Source of the DNA: Cladosporium halotolerans | Lineage: Eukaryota | NCBI RefSeq assembly: GCF_011745625.1 | Contig: NW_027191473.1 | Coordinates: 310,001 to 374,000 of the forward strand | Direction: 5' to 3' | DNA length: 64,000 bases | Shown: in pieces, positions 40,410 through 44,134 of the stretch | How the letters are laid out: every line of letters begins with the position of its first letter | Position numbering within the stretch: the stretch's first letter is position 1 | Program-made: the position numbers and the translations under genes | Notes under the pieces: generated by a model | What the model was told of the DNA's origin: nothing | The model's input: the letters and a program-made list of their open reading frames with translations, nothing else | Databases searched by the model: none

Positions 40410-41552
40410 TTAAGAAGCGTGTCGAACCGCAGCGTCATCAAGGTTCTTCAGTACGCCTTGCGTCTCCTTGACCAGTTCCTTTCTCTTCGCTCTAGCCTCT
40501 TGGTCGCCCTCTGTCTCAACTGCGTCCAATTTAAGCAGAACTTGCGTGAGGATCGTCTCGCTCAATCTCTTATGCTCAAACTCGCGCTTGGCTGGCTCAG
40601 TAGGCGGTGTGCGGTCAAAGACATCAACCTCCTTAGCGTACGTGTGTAGCGTGTCGCGGAGAGACGCGATCTTCTGTTCGGCCGACTGAGGTGGTTTGGG
40701 TGATGGTGCACGCGAAGTCTGCGGCGGAGGGATAGGCACACCAAGGTTGGATGCATCGGGCGTGCTGGTGCCTGACGTCTTGGGCTTGTTGCGACGCTTC
40801 TTGTTCTTGTTGCGGTTTCTCCGGCGCTTGGCGTTGTCCGGATCTGCGCTGTCCTCAACGCCATCCACACTGTCGTCCTCGTCATCACTACCAGACGCCG
40901 ATGGCATGTCGCCAATCGTCAGGAGGACTTGTGCTTCGTGCTTGAGACCCTCCTGCTTGCACAGCCTTGCGTCATCCTTCAAGTTCTTGCCCTGGAAAAT
41001 GAGCTTCACTCTCCTCGCGTCAACGCCAATCTTTCTACCGGCCTGCTCGCGCACTTGACCAACGGTCAGCCCGCCTTTCGCGATGCTGTACGCCGGGAAG
41101 TGCACGGCGTAGCTCTGGCCCTTGTTCCGGAGACTCAACATGTCCGTGTCCCGGGAAGGGCCCAAGTCGTCTGCTGCCTGCTGTTCATGACGCTTCAGAT
41201 CCTCGGTCGTAATGTAGCTGAAGTCCGCGTCACTCACGGTTGTGCTGCCCTGCGGCGGACTGCGCGTAAAGGGAGAGAAGCGGCCAAGGTTGCCGAACCT
41301 TGATGTCCAGCTCATGACGAGAACGAGGAAAGTAGCCGCTGCGAGAGCGACCGAGGTGTTTTCGAAGGCGGTGCGCTCGGCGAAGAAGTCGTAGACTCGG
41401 TCCTGCCAGGACGTAGACGCAGATGCCGGGGAGAAGACGTTGTCGCTGGCTTGAGCTAGCGCGGCGTTCAGGTGCGCGACGGACAAGAGCGCAGTCAGAT
41501 TGCCGTGCGACAGGCTCGAGAGGAGTTGGTCGAAAAGACTGGAGGAAGCCAC
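40410..41552 (-). CDS. BAG-family Hsp70 co-chaperone (ubiquitin-like + BAG domain); first AUG at 41315, in-frame GUG at 41552
   Basis: UBL: LTVGQVREQAG...VKLIFQGKNLKDD. BAG: EHKRLSETILTQVLLKLDAVETEGDQEARAKRKELVKETQ. Confidence 0.9.
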   Translation of the reverse strand: MASSSLFDQLLSSLSHGNLTALLSVAHLNAALAQASDNVFSPASASTSWQDRVYDFFAERTAFENTSVALAAATFLVLVMSWTSRFGNLGRFSPFTRSPPQGSTTVSDADFSYITTEDLKRHEQQAADDLGPSRDTDMLSLRNKGQSYAVHFPAYSIAKGGLTVGQVREQAGRKIGVDARRVKLIFQGKNLKDDARLCKQEGLKHEAQVLLTIGDMPSASGSDDEDDSVDGVEDSADPDNAKRRRNRNKNKKRRNKPKTSGTSTPDASNLGVPIPPPQTSRAPSPKPPQSAEQKIASLRDTLHTYAKEVDVFDRTPPTEPAKREFEHKRLSETILTQVLLKLDAVETEGDQEARAKRKELVKETQGVLKNLDDAAVRHAS

Positions 41553-42199
41553 GGTTGCGGCTGCTGCGGTAACGCAGAGAGATGGACTATGCTGGCAGGT
41601 ATGCGGTCAGTTGTTTCACGCCAGAGGATTTTGAACGGCAAGGTGACGACAGTTGTGCAGCAGGGTCTTTGCTGGGGAGGGCGGGCTGGCGGGCCCCACG
41701 CCAGTCGGAGGGCAGCGCGAGCCTTGGAGTGCGAGGCGGCGCGAAATAATGTCCCAGGACATACGAAGTTTGAGGAGCTGCCTGAAATATAAACCTACTG
41801 TGGATTGTTTGTGGGAGAGGAAGTGTTTTCAAGCAGTCGAGCATCGGCGGAACATCCACTCAAGTACTGTAGGACGTGAGGTGTGAAGACAACGAGTATC
41901 CTCAGGCGACAACAGCCATAGCCATAAGGGAGGCCAGTCGCAACTTCTGGCGCTCAAGCGACGGCCAGCCGCCGAAGCGCGACGCCCGCGCCCACGCCCA
42001 TAGGGCTGAGCCATGCCCAGATGTACGCCCCTCCGCAGACTCTTCAGCCCGCGCCGCCCCCTCGGCTTTCCTGCCGCACACTGATTTTTGCCAAGCGCAC
42101 CTGCTGCGAATTCAGAACGGCGCTACCACCATTCAGTGCTGGCAGACGACGACAACATCGACCAGCCCGTCAATCACCACCTGTACTAACCGCAGCAAA

Positions 42200-43078
42200 A
42201 TGTCGACTTTCGAGCCTGTGGTACGCATCCCCCGAAAGCGAGAAACTCCTTGCGCGCAGCCGCACGATCTGGTGGACATGGGGGTTGGGAAATGCAGGAC
42301 AGCGATGGCTGATGGAATACACAGGTTGTCGTCGACGGCAAGGGCCACCTTCTCGGCCGCCTGGCCTCCACGGTCGCCAAGCAGCTTCTGAACGGCCAGA
42401 AGGTTGTCGTTGTCCGCTGCGAGCAGCTCAACATCTCCGGCGAGTTCTTCCGCGCGAAGCGTACGTCCACCCACCGAACCACCCCACCGAATGCGAACGA
42501 GCGAGGCGAATGAGGAGGAAACGGGCCAGCAACACCAGCACCGATGACTAACTCCGGTTCGAATACAGTGAAGTACCAGGCCTTCCTCCGCAAGCAGACC
42601 CGTTTCAACGCCTCTCGCGGTGGCCCATGGCACTACCGTGCGCCGGCCAAGATGTTCTGGCGCACCGTCCGTGGCATGATCCCTCACAAGACTGAGCGTG
42701 GTGCCGCTGCCATGAACCGCCTGAAGGCTTTCGAGGGTATCCCCGCCCCCTACGACCACAAGAAGCGCATGGTCGTCCCCCAGGCGCTCCGTGTCCTCCG
42801 CCTCAAGCCCGGCCGCAAGTACTGCACCGTCGGCCGTCTCGGTCGCGAGTTCGGCTGGAAGTACGGCGATGTTGTTGAGAAGTACGTTTTGGATATCCTT
42901 GTCACGTGGAGAATGGCTGGAATACTAACGATGTTGCAGGCTCGAGGAGAGGAGAAAGGTCAAGGGCTCTGCCTACTACGAGCGCAAGAGGGCTCTCCAG
43001 AAGAAGCTCATCGACGCCAAGAAGAGCGCGCCTGTCGACGGCAAGGTCAGGGAGGAGCTCGCCCAGTACGGTTACTAG
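42200..43078 (+). CDS. RPL16: 60S ribosomal protein L16 (uL13), 4 exons
   Basis: [88 protein letters not shown]. Confidence 0.97.
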
Positions 43079-44134
43079 ATGTTTTCTCGACGTTGAGGGA
43101 CGGGTGGCATGGTTTTGGCGAAGCGGCGATGGCGCTGTGGTTTTAGCGAACGTATGAAAGGGCACGATCGCAAACACAGATGCCTGCAAGCTGTGAGACC
43201 CAGGCACGTTGCTGATGTGCAGGGTTTCGGGGCACCTTGATGCATATACTATCAACCCCAAAGATTTCACGCATTCAACAACGGGCCTGCACGGTCGCAC
43301 CGGAACTGTCTTCTCCTTCGCTCTTGGTCGCATGATGTGTGTCAAGAAAAGCAAGCAAATCGATACCAGGCAGTACTCAATGGCAAAACTTACGGCTATT
43401 ATAAGAAGATGGAAATCATCTCGTGATCAGTCCTATTGTCCGGTTGTAAGGAGTGAAAACTCACTAGCCCAGAGTGCTGACAAAATATGCAATCACACGA
43501 GCCATTACTTCTCTCGGAAGGCTCCCCATCAGCAATGCCCGTCTTGTGCAGCAGTGGTCGAGGCCTAGTACAGTAGTACCGTATTCTTGTTAGCTTCCTG
43601 ATCCGGGGCCCCGGTGGCGGGAAGTGTGGATGGCGAGTTCCCGGTAGGTCATCCAGCGACCTAAGGTACCAATGCGAGAGGCATCGGTTTGAAGTCTGCT
43701 TTGCGACCAGAGCCACCGGTGGCAGCGATCCAGCGGACCGAGCGTGTCGCAAATGGAGCCCAACATGTAGACAAAACGGCGCAGCAATCTCCTGCAGTAA
43801 ATAAACTCGTGGGACTTTGTCCTCAAACGTACTCGACTGAAGAAGCTTAGGTCGCCTTGGCGGTCGGGAAGCGAGTCGCTCTTGCTGCCTCGAAGCTGGG
43901 CAGCCAGCATCTCCACCAGCCAGCCAACGCTCTCTCATTTCCTCTCTCCACCCAAACTCTCTCCTCGCGACTCATCCAAATCCCGAGCAACTCTATTTGT
44001 ACAGTATCGCGAAACAGCCTGGCGCTGTATTACCTTTGCAGCTTTCGCGCAGTCCACCGTACTGGCGGCGGATAGGCCACTCTACCTTGCGCCCGGAGCC
44101 TCCCAGCACAGAAGCATGTGCCCCTGCGCCTGGC

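What the first reader, a model, noticed from the sequence alone, without database searches (positions are those of the whole stretch)
41313..41764. BAG co-chaperone with a GUG-initiated, membrane-anchoring N-terminal extension: two isoforms from one gene?
Seen: on the minus strand the reading frame is open for 79 codons upstream of the first AUG (41315, MSWTSRF). It starts at GUG 41552 in a near-optimal context (GCAACC-GTG-GC; A at -3, G at +4). There is no ATG in any frame on this strand from 41316 to 41759. The extension reads like protein and ends in a hydrophobic segment (TSVALAAATFLVLV) directly abutting the AUG. Known: human BAG1L starts at a non-AUG (CUG) codon; yeast Snl1 and S. pombe Bag102 are TM-anchored BAG proteins, while Bag101 is soluble. 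Inference: leaky scanning past GUG yields both an ER/nuclear-envelope-anchored and a cytosolic Hsp70 nucleotide-exchange factor, tunable by start-codon stringency. Similar near-cognate extensions may already be reported in Neurospora, so novelty needs checking. Alternative: an intron from GTATGT (41764) to the second acceptor TAG (41587) would splice ATG 41844 in frame; the first acceptor CAG (41592) would not.
Basis: partly seen in the sequence, partly recalled or inferred. Interest (0 to 1): 0.8.

Follow-up and report, generated by a model that had tools for sequence, protein, structure and literature searches.

The report
GUG-started membrane anchor on fungal BAG co-chaperone
A fungal Hsp70 co-chaperone gene appears to start translation at a conserved non-AUG (GUG) codon that adds a membrane anchor, while the next AUG would give a soluble form, so one gene probably makes two differently located proteins.

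Summary
On the minus strand, GTG 41552 (GCAACC GTG GC) opens a 79-codon in-frame extension of a ubiquitin-like + BAG co-chaperone gene. It ends in the protein's only hydrophobic helix, and the first AUG (41315) lies inside that helix.

Of 39 distinct orthologous extension sequences (the window plus metagenome loci), 35 carry an in-frame GTG or CTG with A at -3 and G at +4. It sits where protein conservation begins, and no in-frame ATG lies within the conserved extension. Three lineages have an ATG at that site, each in weak context.

The extension evolves as coding sequence (dN/dS 0.20-0.47). The internal Met is invariant.

Twenty-six named gene models from Sordariomycetes, Leotiomycetes, Sarea and Dothideomycetes have unrelated N-termini upstream of a shared x-[V/L/M]-A-[S/T] motif. 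The feature is therefore probably Pezizomycotina-wide and widely mis-annotated.

One RNA contig ends 21 nt upstream of the GTG with adapter-like letters. The proposed AUG-supplying intron is not conserved and was not seen in RNA.

Protein-level proof and the isoform ratio are missing. This is a new member of a known kind: a near-cognate start giving dual localisation.

Also found: an in-frame alternative intron that removes the most conserved motif.

The parts
41553..41573 (-). Shortest observed 5' leader (21 nt, GTTACCGCAGCAGCCGCAACC). It holds no AUG and no near-cognate codon in any frame.
   Evidence: The RNA contig of run X11 matches 41238-41573 and then carries 22 non-genomic letters (tables 7 and 8) that are absent from the window. 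Leader content. In the sister-species contig L005 the sequence breaks at -21..-19 from its GTG.
41550..41552 (-). GTG near-cognate start codon in the context GCAACC GTG GC (A at -3, G at +4). It is the first in-frame near-cognate after the stop at 41609-41607.
   Evidence: GTG with A-3/G+4 lies at the aligned site in 25 of 39 distinct extension sequences, and CTG with A-3/G+4 in 9 more. L019 has GTG with G at -3 and L039 has CTG with A-3/G+4.
41316..41552 (-). 79-codon N-terminal extension: a low-confidence helical N-domain with an NLT sequon (residues 18-20 counted from the GTG, 41493-41501), followed by the TM-like helix.
   Evidence: Open frame. dN/dS against 16 relatives is 0.20-0.47, with codon-position differences 3>1>2. 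Alignments. Sequons.
41298..41369 (-). Single TM-like helix (residues 62-85 counted from the GTG) that spans the internal AUG.
   Evidence: Kyte-Doolittle 19-residue maximum is 1.65, and the next best window elsewhere is 1.06. AlphaFold2 predicts a helix at 62-85 with block pLDDT 68-78. In 20 of 20 orthologs the best hydrophobic window abuts the internal Met and the C-flank charge is +1 to +4.
41313..41315 (-). First AUG (Met80 of the long form; context CTCGTC ATG A). Proposed start of the soluble isoform.
   Evidence: The Met is invariant in 31 of 31 and 20 of 20 aligned sequences. Many NCBI models start here.
40410..41315 (-). Body of the gene. The ubiquitin-like fold is at about 40914-41147, the BAG three-helix bundle at about 40416-40682, and the stop TAA at 40410-40412.
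   Evidence: Pfam BAG PF02179, 75.7 bits against a cut-off of 23.4. Ubiquitin PF00240, 25.2 bits against a cut-off of 25.4. AlphaFold2 strands and helix at 136-213 and helices at 291-379, both with pLDDT about 90 or more.
41178..41237 (-). In-frame alternative intron ('exitron'). The 5' splice site is GTGAGT at 41237, with tandem acceptors CAG|CAG, so it removes 57 nt (41181-41237) or 60 nt (41178-41237). This deletes VSDADFSYITTEDLKRHEQ(Q).
   Evidence: Joints in RNA contigs of two runs: X11 skips 57 nt and X13 skips 60 nt, with GT..AG on the gene strand. Retained forms are present beside them (tables 5 and 8). The sister-species protein P0017 lacks the homologous 19 residues. GTGAGT plus in-frame AGs at +57/+60 occur in 9 distinct close sequences only.
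41601..41610 (-). Conserved upstream motif CTGAC(C)GCAT, which contains the in-frame stop. It may be a promoter or leader element.
   Evidence: It aligns in 9 of 9 close relatives, about 45-65 nt upstream of the GTG.
41587..41764 (-). CAG 41592 / TAG 41587). Not supported.
   Evidence: The arithmetic is confirmed. GTATGT does not align in the 8 close relatives compared.

Best explanation
The gene encodes the fungal BAG-1-type Hsp70 co-chaperone, with a ubiquitin-like domain and a BAG domain.

Its mRNA has a short leader without any AUG. Some scanning ribosomes start at GUG 41552, which sits in an optimal context (A at -3, G at +4). They make a 380-residue protein. Its extra 79 residues form an N-terminal domain of about 60 residues followed by one transmembrane helix. 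The helix probably acts as a signal anchor, with the N-terminus on the luminal side and the ubiquitin-like and BAG domains in the cytosol or nucleoplasm, as in S. pombe Bag102 and yeast Snl1.

Ribosomes that pass the GUG meet no other AUG in any frame until AUG 41315. That AUG lies inside the helix, so they make a 301-residue soluble protein without the anchor. One gene thus supplies both a membrane-tethered and a free nucleotide-exchange factor.

Shown here:
- coding conservation of the extension;
- a conserved near-cognate start with conserved context;
- GTG, CTG or weak-context ATG interchanging at one site;
- an invariant internal Met;
- a single TM-like helix with a positive C-flank;
- one RNA 5' end upstream of the GUG.

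Inferred:
- actual initiation at the GUG;
- production and ratio of the two proteins;
- leaky scanning as the route to the short form;
- topology and organelle.
For: 1. Start codon. In an objective scan of 39 distinct extension sequences, 35 have an in-frame GTG or CTG with A-3/G+4. At the aligned site it is GTG in 25 and CTG in 9. Where the residue is Val the codon is always GTG. By contrast, the invariant Val of the VSDADF motif in the same gene uses GTG 14, GTC 14, GTA 3 and GTT 1 of 32. The residue before the start varies (T, N, I, K, V), but the base at -3 is A in all of these sequences except L019, where it is G.

2. Site strength looks tuned. Where an ATG sits at or next to the site its context is weak: L022 C-3/T+4, L014 C/C, L048 T/C.

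3. Conservation begins at the start codon. Upstream DNA aligns poorly and with indels. NCBI models have unrelated N-termini upstream of x-[V/L/M]-A-[S/T] (26 of 30 named models; the other 4 start at the internal Met).

4. In L017 the in-frame stop lies only 4 codons upstream of the GTG.

5. The extension is coding. dN/dS is 0.20-0.47, against 0.07-0.14 downstream. No in-frame ATG occurs within the conserved extension in 0 of 39 sequences.

6. Room for leaky scanning. No ATG in any frame lies between the GTG and the AUG in 16 of 19 distinct orthologs. The Met is invariant.

7. Anchor. There is one TM-like helix abutting the Met and a C-flank of +1 to +4 in 20 of 20 orthologs. The hydropathy maximum is at least 1.6 in 17 of 20. 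An N-x-S/T sequon precedes the helix in 17 of 20. AlphaFold2 predicts a helix at 62-85.

8. RNA. The X11 contig reaches 41573 and then carries 22 letters that I recognise from recall as the end of a template-switching cDNA adapter followed by Gs. They are not in the window. The sister-species transcript-like contigs L001, L003 and L012 begin 84, 72 and 82 nt upstream of their GTG, are collinear with genomic L002, and have no ATG in the leader.
Against: - There is no protein-level or ribosome-profiling evidence.
- The RNA evidence rests on assembled contigs of metatranscriptomes. The 5' end is seen in one contig of one run, and reading its loose letters as an adapter rests on my recall.
- That L001, L003, L005 and L012 are transcripts is inferred only from their coinciding ends.
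- The ATG depletion is weak per locus: codon-shuffle P(0) is 0.26-0.91, and 3 of 19 orthologs have one ATG.
- Hydropathy in the window's own protein is only just at the classical threshold (1.65), and 3 of 20 orthologs fall below it.
- Four of 39 extension sequences have no strong-context GTG or CTG: L022 has an ATG instead, L042 runs off its contig, and L047 and L050 have neither.
- The loci are phylogenetically related, so the counts are not independent events.
- For the named Sordariomycete and Leotiomycete models only protein sequence was seen, so their start-site codons are unknown.
Confidence: 0.72

Rival explanations
1. Two isoforms exist, but the short one comes from a second transcription start downstream of the GUG (an mRNA that lacks the GUG), not from leaky scanning.
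For: Alternative transcription starts are a known route to dual localisation in fungi (PMC7049704, passage seen). Transcript-like contigs in the sister species already suggest more than one 5' end, at about -84/-72 and about -21.
Against: No 5' end downstream of the GUG was demonstrated. The pattern of near-cognate plus strong context, or AUG plus weak context, and the scarcity of ATGs between the two starts are what selection for leaky scanning predicts. They are not needed under a two-promoter model. A GUG start is inherently leaky (general knowledge).
Confidence: 0.12
2. Only the GUG-initiated, anchored protein matters. The internal Met is conserved for structural reasons, and any AUG-initiated product is a minor by-product.
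For: The Met sits in a conserved MSW motif at the cytosolic end of the helix and is kept even where an upstream ATG exists (L022, L048).
Against: Near-cognate starts capture only part of the scanning ribosomes (general knowledge). The next AUG is in frame and is reached without any intervening AUG. The upstream ATGs that do occur are in weak context. One lineage (L047) has the MSW start with no TM-like extension in frame. Short models are the annotated form in many species.
Confidence: 0.08
3. The extension is translated from an AUG in an upstream exon joined by splicing.
For: GTATGT, CTGAC and YAG signals are present, and the TAG acceptor keeps the frame. Aureobasidium-like relatives have a conserved intron-like element ending 18 nt upstream of their AAA CTG GCT.
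Against: GTATGT 41764 is not aligned or conserved in 8 close relatives. The peptide it would add is not conserved. The first AG after the branch-like site (CAG 41592) breaks the frame. The X11 contig leaves the genome at 41573, 13 nt inside the putative exon 2, into letters unlike the exon-1 end. The sister-species contigs are unspliced through the leader. In the Aureobasidium-like loci no conserved in-frame upstream ATG exists: MDE-GT occurs only in L037, and the ATG at -130 is out of frame and absent in L024.
Confidence: 0.03
4. The region upstream of AUG 41315 is an untranslated but conserved leader, and the open frame is fortuitous.
For: An open frame of this length alone has P of about 0.08.
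Against: The frame stays open with no stop in every ortholog found. Indels are in multiples of three. Substitutions follow 3>1>2 by codon position, and dN/dS is 0.20-0.47. A hydrophobic helix and charge asymmetry are conserved down to 37% identity.
Confidence: 0.03

Closest known systems
Human BAG-1 isoforms (BAG-1L, M, S)
   Same: The domain plan is the same: a ubiquitin-like domain plus a C-terminal BAG domain. One mRNA gives N-terminally different isoforms by leaky scanning. The longest starts at a non-AUG codon (CUG), and the isoforms differ in location (PMC6821271, passages seen).
   Different: Here the near-cognate is GUG (CUG in some lineages) in an optimal context, whereas the human starts are described as suboptimal. 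The extension carries a transmembrane helix rather than nuclear-localisation sequence. No sequence relation between the two extensions was tested, so independent origin is the default assumption.
S. pombe Bag102 / Bag101 and S. cerevisiae Snl1
   Same: Bag102 is a ubiquitin-like + BAG protein with a single TM near the N-terminus. It sits at the nuclear/ER membrane with its C-terminus facing cytosol or nucleus, while Bag101 is soluble (PMC3907333, passages seen). Snl1 is ER/nuclear-membrane anchored by an N-terminal TM, with its BAG domain in the cytosol (PMC3962485, passages seen). The predicted long form here has the same layout.
   Different: Fission yeast uses two genes for the anchored and soluble forms. 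Here one gene would give both through two start codons. The pre-TM segment here is long (about 60 residues), against a TM within the first 31-39 residues in the yeasts. Orthology of the TM segments was not tested.
Fungal near-cognate-initiated dual-localised proteins ('DualNCC' aminoacyl-tRNA synthetases; peroxisomal 6-phosphogluconate dehydrogenase)
   Same: A near-cognate start in strong context lies upstream of the annotated AUG and adds a targeting signal. Weak AUGs and near-cognates interchange between lineages (PMC7049704, passages seen; PMC7214817, abstract seen).
   Different: The signal here is a membrane anchor rather than a mitochondrial presequence or PTS2, and the client is the cell's BAG-type Hsp70 exchange factor. 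'BAG' does not occur in the main text of PMC7049704 or PMC5487733.
Neurospora cpc-1 N-terminal extension (Ivanov et al. 2017)
   Same: It is a Pezizomycotina-wide conserved near-cognate codon, with A at -3 and G at +4 perfectly conserved, and an extension under purifying selection that is weaker than in the main ORF (PMC5487733, passages seen).
   Different: The cpc-1 extension works within uORF control of a transcription factor. Here the leader is short and free of AUGs, and the extension changes membrane association.

Membership tests
BAG-1-type co-chaperone (ubiquitin-like + BAG) | C-terminal BAG domain (three-helix bundle) | tested here: met
   Pfam PF02179, E 4.2e-21, 75.7 bits against a cut-off of 23.4. 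AlphaFold2 helices 291-314, 320-343 and 351-379 with pLDDT about 90 or more. Weak PDB sequence hits to the BAG domains of BAG3, BAG4 and BAG5.
BAG-1-type co-chaperone (ubiquitin-like + BAG) | Ubiquitin-like domain N-terminal to the BAG domain | tested here: met
   PF00240 scores 25.2 bits, just under the 25.4 cut-off. The same family is precomputed on many homologs. AlphaFold2 gives a strand/helix pattern at 136-213 with pLDDT about 90. No fold search was run.
BAG-1-type co-chaperone (ubiquitin-like + BAG) | Binds Hsp70 and acts as a nucleotide-exchange factor | not testable with these tools
   Inferred from domain membership only.
Membrane-anchored BAG proteins (Snl1 / Bag102 type) | Single N-terminal transmembrane segment | tested here: met
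   There is one hydrophobic window, 1.65 in the window and at least 1.6 in 17 of 20 orthologs, and none elsewhere above 1.15. A helix is predicted at 62-85. No dedicated TM predictor was available.
Membrane-anchored BAG proteins (Snl1 / Bag102 type) | BAG domain on the cytosolic/nuclear side; ER or nuclear-envelope location | not testable with these tools
   Predicted only. The C-flank charge is +1 to +4 and the N-flank -2 to +1 in 20 of 20 orthologs. A sequon precedes the helix in 17 of 20.
Near-cognate-initiated N-terminal extension with dual products | In-frame near-cognate codon in strong context at the 5' edge of protein conservation, conserved across species | tested here: met
   (35 of 39 distinct sequences). 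Protein-level motif in 26 of 30 named models.
Near-cognate-initiated N-terminal extension with dual products | Coding-type constraint between the near-cognate codon and the annotated AUG | tested here: met
   dN/dS is 0.20-0.47 in 16 comparisons, and third-position changes dominate.
Near-cognate-initiated N-terminal extension with dual products | mRNA includes the near-cognate codon and has no upstream AUG | tested here: inconclusive
   One RNA contig ends at 41573. Sister-species transcript-like contigs hold ATG-free leaders. No raw reads, CAGE or 5' RACE were available.
Near-cognate-initiated N-terminal extension with dual products | Direct evidence of initiation at the near-cognate codon and of two protein products | not testable with these tools
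   No ribosome-profiling or proteomic data were available.
AUG supplied by a spliced 5' exon (rival gene model) | Conserved 5' splice site and an in-frame upstream AUG | tested here: not met
   GTATGT 41764 is not conserved in 8 close relatives. No conserved in-frame upstream ATG exists.

The most novel reading that the evidence does not exclude
Across Pezizomycotina the sole BAG-1-type Hsp70 exchange factor is split between a membrane-anchored pool and a soluble pool by a deliberately leaky start site. That site is a GUG or CUG in perfect context, or an AUG in poor context, kept for hundreds of millions of years. The ratio of the two pools would then respond to start-codon stringency and stress signalling (eIF1/eIF5 levels, eIF2-alpha phosphorylation). 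This would link ER or proteotoxic stress directly to where Hsp70 nucleotide exchange takes place. In the window's clade a second, splicing-based switch removes the most conserved motif, giving up to four proteoforms. Published fungal BAG studies that used the AUG-defined ORF would have missed the anchored form.
Probability: 0.3. Interest if true: 0.75.

Novelty: new member of a known kind. Interest (0 to 1): 0.6.

Why it matters
- **Annotation.** Current gene models for this gene disagree. Some start at the internal Met. Others use unrelated upstream AUGs or invented introns. A conserved GUG/CUG start gives one consistent model for a whole subphylum.
- **Cell biology.** It suggests that filamentous fungi obtain both a Bag102/Snl1-like anchored exchange factor and a Bag101-like soluble one from a single gene.
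- **Earlier experiments.** Work on fungal BAG genes may need re-reading. For example, the 298-residue BcBAG1 was linked to ER-stress sensitivity (PMC6467101, passages seen). The native gene may also encode an anchored form.
- **Translation.** It adds a clean, deeply conserved case to the small set of non-AUG starts that set protein location. The weak-AUG versus strong-near-cognate exchange is visible at a single site.

Tried and rejected
- **RNA cover.** X11 and X13 contigs show no cover between about 41640 and 42108, and the X13 contig stops at 41514. X1 and X2 cover everything and look like DNA.
- **Loose-end letters.** The 22 letters are not in the window with up to 3 mismatches. The organism's whole genome is not held (error), so an origin elsewhere in the genome is not excluded.
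- **ATG depletion between GTG and AUG.** It is real in count (0 ATGs in 16 of 19) but weak per locus by codon shuffling (P(0) 0.26-0.91). I use it as supporting evidence only.
- **Region-restricted homolog search** (residues 19-120). It returned 50 proteins, and all but 2 (P0122, P0123) were already. It gave no wider taxonomic reach.
- My first regex took the wrong Val in L019 (GTC). The aligned codon is GTG with G at -3.
- **NCBI model P0116 for Aureobasidium (MDE + VAITT).** An ATG-GAT-GAA-GT exon exists only in L037, 228 nt upstream, and not in L024 or L028. I therefore treat that exon as a prediction artefact and propose the conserved AAA CTG GCT as the start there.
- **PDB sequence search.** It gave only weak BAG-domain hits. 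No fold search was run.
- **Earlier findings of this scan.** Nothing by place or by sequence.
- **Literature.**
  - No paper holds 'BAG domain' + 'non-AUG' + 'fungi' (0 papers).
  - Wei et al. 2013 (J Biol Chem 288:9549) is cited in PMC5487733 as the source of the cpc-1 extension. It is not held and I did not see it, so it could list further Neurospora extensions.
  - I opened no supplementary files.
- **Motif VSDADFSYIT.EDL.** I considered, from recall only, an Atg8-interacting or FFAT-like reading. I did not test either and do not claim them.
Full report
**1. What is in the window**

On the minus strand a frame is open from 41606 to the stop TAA at 40410-40412 (398 codons from stop to stop).

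[quoted passage not shown] It also finds a ubiquitin-family match just below its cut-off (25.2 against 25.4 bits). AlphaFold2, run on a 20-sequence alignment, gives a confident strand/helix domain at residues 136-213 and a three-helix bundle at 291-379, counted from the GTG. The gene is therefore a BAG-1-type Hsp70 co-chaperone.

The best named relatives are Dothideomycetes: Cryoendolithus, Hortaea, Elasticomyces, Cercospora and Aureobasidium.

The neighbours are an MFS transporter downstream and, divergently upstream on the + strand, ribosomal protein uL13.

**2. Check of the observation**

- GTG lies at 41552 in the context GCAACC GTG GC.
- The first ATG is at 41315, 79 codons later.
- No minus-strand ATG lies between 41316 and 41759.
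- A hydrophobic stretch abuts the ATG.
- The splice arithmetic for the alternative model holds.

The window by itself is only mildly unusual. An open 97-codon stretch has P of about 0.08. About 3.5 ATGs are expected in the ATG-free stretch, from the base counts.

**3. Comparative evidence for a non-AUG start**

A scan of metagenome contigs gave 57 loci that encode relatives. Where the 5' region is present, the frame upstream of the conserved MSW Met is open in every locus. Protein similarity begins at a motif x-V-A-S.

The Val codon is GTG with A at -3 and G at +4 in sequence after sequence..GCAACC GTG GC.., and GCCACC GTG GC in L015 and L016. More distant orthologs show the same:
- L040, at 40% protein identity;
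- L053, at 32% identity and closest to Sordariales models;
- L036 and L026.

Other lineages carry CTG in the same context:
- L039;
- L027;
- the Aureobasidium-like loci L024, L028 and L037;
- L034, L045 and L048.

An unbiased listing of in-frame start-like codons covered 39 distinct extension sequences.
- 35 have a GTG or CTG with A-3/G+4.
- The 4 without are L022 (an ATG instead), L042 (runs off its contig), L047 and L050.
- No sequence has an in-frame ATG inside the conserved extension.

The three lineages with an ATG at or beside the site have it in poor context: L022 C-3/T+4, L014 C/C, L048 T/C.

As an internal control, the invariant Val of the VSDADF motif in the same gene uses GTG 14, GTC 14, GTA 3 and GTT 1 of 32 distinct sequences.

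The amino acid before the start varies (T, N, I, K, V), while -3 stays A in nearly every sequence, with G in L019.

DNA upstream of about -25 aligns poorly and with indels, apart from two short motifs. In L017 an in-frame stop lies four codons upstream of the GTG.

Taken together, this is the signature of a conserved near-cognate initiation codon.

**4. Breadth**

A profile search with four distant loci returned named models from many groups:
- Sordariales, Xylariales and Diaporthales;
- Leotiomycetes (Lachnellula, Stipitochalara, Diplocarpon, Pseudogymnoascus);
- Sarea;
- Botryosphaeriales.

Of the 30 named models I printed, 26 have mutually unrelated N-termini that converge on x-[V/L/M]-A-[S/T]. 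The residue at the site is V in 19, L in 6 and M in 1 (Cercophora newfieldiana). The other 4 start at the internal Met. Only protein sequence was available for these, so their codons are not known.

The pattern suggests that the feature spans Pezizomycotina. It also suggests that gene predictors, which need an AUG, have improvised.

**5. The extension is coding and carries the anchor**

Against 16 relatives, the extension has dN/dS of 0.20-0.47 with third-position changes dominant. The first 110 codons after the AUG have 0.07-0.14.

In 20 of 20 aligned orthologs the single best hydrophobic window abuts the internal Met. It is at least 1.6 in 17 of 20 (1.65 in the window), and the next best window elsewhere is at most 1.15. 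The 15 residues after it carry net +1 to +4, and those before it -2 to +1. An N-x-S/T sequon precedes the helix in 17 of 20.

AlphaFold2 predicts a helix at residues 62-85 that spans Met80. The first 60 residues are low-confidence helices.

By the positive-inside rule (established knowledge) this predicts a signal anchor with the N-terminus luminal and the ubiquitin-like and BAG domains cytosolic. That is the layout reported for Bag102 and Snl1 (PMC3907333 and PMC3962485; passages seen).

**6. Two products**

The Met at 41315 is invariant in every aligned sequence (31 of 31; 20 of 20). Between the GTG and this AUG there is no ATG in any frame in the window and in 16 of 19 distinct orthologs. 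Three orthologs have one.

A near-cognate start lets many ribosomes pass (general knowledge). The next AUG is in frame and lies inside the helix, so a soluble 301-residue form is the expected by-product.

The evolutionary exchange between 'strong-context GUG/CUG' and 'weak-context AUG' argues that intermediate start strength is itself selected. The same exchange has been described for dual-localised fungal tRNA synthetases (PMC7049704, passage seen).

Whether the short form arises by leaky scanning or from a second transcription start is not settled here.

**7. RNA evidence**

Of the runs that hold the stretch I laid four. X11 and X13 are on record as RNA. X1 and X2 behave as DNA.

The X11 contig matches 41238-41573 and then carries 22 letters that are not in the window. 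Read in mRNA sense, I recognise them from recall as the 3' part of a template-switching cDNA adapter followed by Gs. That would mark a cDNA 5' end 21 nt upstream of the GTG. That 21-nt leader has no AUG or near-cognate codon.

In a sister species (about 75% protein identity) three 1.4-1.5-kb contigs have ends that coincide (L001, L003, L012). They begin 84, 72 and 82 nt upstream of the GTG. They are collinear with the genomic contig L002 and hold no ATG in the leader.

A fourth contig (L005) joins a duplicate of its own internal segment onto position -21..-19, the same place as the X11 end.

These are assembled contigs, not reads, so they are hints and not proof.

**8. The rival gene model**

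The GTATGT at 41764 is not conserved in the 8 close relatives aligned. The peptide it would add is not conserved. The first AG after the branch-like CTGAC breaks the frame.

The conserved CTGAC(C)GCAT is better read as a promoter or leader element.

Aureobasidium-like loci do have a conserved intron-like element (GTATGT ... CTGAC ... YAG). It ends 18 nt upstream of their AAA CTG GCT, and no conserved in-frame upstream ATG exists there.

**9. A second finding: an in-frame alternative intron**

RNA contigs of two runs join 41180 to 41238 (57 nt removed) and 41176/7 to 41237/8 (60 nt removed). Both have GT..AG on the gene strand, beside contigs that retain the segment.

The 5' site is GTGAGT, which also encodes Val-Ser. 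The acceptors are a CAG|CAG tandem. The removed peptide, VSDADFSYITTEDLKRHEQ(Q), holds the most conserved motif of the family (invariant columns).

A sister-species protein, P0017, lacks the homologous 19 residues. GTGAGT with in-frame AGs at +57/+60 is confined to the close clade, in 9 distinct sequences.

**10. What is known, and novelty**

Non-AUG starts that add a targeting signal are established in fungi:
- PMC7214817 (abstract);
- PMC7049704 (passages);
- PMC6582344 (search listing only);
- a Pezizomycotina-wide conserved near-cognate extension in cpc-1 (PMC5487733, passages).

Human BAG-1L starts at CUG, and the BAG-1 isoforms arise by leaky scanning (PMC6821271, passages).

I found no report of this for fungal BAG genes. 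No paper holds 'BAG domain', 'non-AUG' and 'fungi' together. 'BAG' is absent from the main text of PMC5487733 and PMC7049704. BcBAG1 is described as a 298-residue protein (PMC6467101, passages).

Wei et al. 2013 could not be read and I opened no supplements, so prior mention is not excluded.

Verdict: this is a real, deeply conserved feature and a new member of a known kind. It is moderately to highly interesting, and its main claims are testable with a tagged allele and three point changes.

Noticed in passing
window 41178-41237 (minus strand): In-frame alternative intron inside the coding region (GTGAGT ... CAG|CAG, 57 or 60 nt). It is spliced in part of the RNA contigs of two runs and in the sister-species protein P0017. 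It removes VSDADFSYITTEDLKRHEQ(Q), the most conserved motif of the family.
   Followed up: partly
window about 41199-41237 (minus strand); residues 106-118 counted from the GTG: The motif V-S-D-A-D-F-S-Y-I-T-x-E/D-D-L lies between the anchor and the ubiquitin-like domain and is nearly invariant down to 32% overall identity. It has no Pfam match. Its function is unknown, and a short linear binding motif is my untested guess.
   Followed up: no
window 41601-41610 and about 41655-41670 (minus strand): Two short non-coding motifs upstream of the GTG are conserved in close relatives..GAAACA(A/C)CTGAC(C)GCAT.. and ..AGACCCTGCTGCA... They are candidate promoter or leader elements. The first contains the in-frame stop.
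   Followed up: no
window 42169-43146 (+ strand): The divergent neighbour is ribosomal protein uL13 (Pfam PF00572). RNA contigs start near 42168/9, the ATG is at 42200, and a loose end continues at 42327. This implies an intron of about 104 nt (about 42221-42324) after the seventh codon. The two genes would share about 600 bp of intergenic DNA.
   Followed up: partly
L024, L028, L037 (Aureobasidium-like loci), about 100 nt upstream of the GTC-GCA codons: A conserved intron-like element (TGG|GTATGT ... TTCTGAC ... YAG|) lies in the leader and ends 18 nt upstream of a conserved AAA CTG GCT. The two NCBI Aureobasidium pullulans models P0114 and P0116 have different, non-conserved N-termini.
   Followed up: partly
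L005:1-115 versus L005:554-668: The first 115 nt of this contig are an exact direct copy of an internal part of the same gene, joined at -21..-19 from the GTG. It looks like a reverse-transcription or assembly artefact at an RNA 5' end.
   Followed up: partly
L047 (around nt 1258): This ortholog has the conserved MSW start but no hydrophobic in-frame extension and no strong-context near-cognate codon upstream. It may be a lineage with only the soluble form, or one with an intron that I did not resolve.
   Followed up: no
window 40371 region (3' untranslated part of the gene): A 14-nt deletion and small insertions relative to the window appear in contigs of runs X11 and X2 (table 4). This is probably strain variation.
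   Followed up: no
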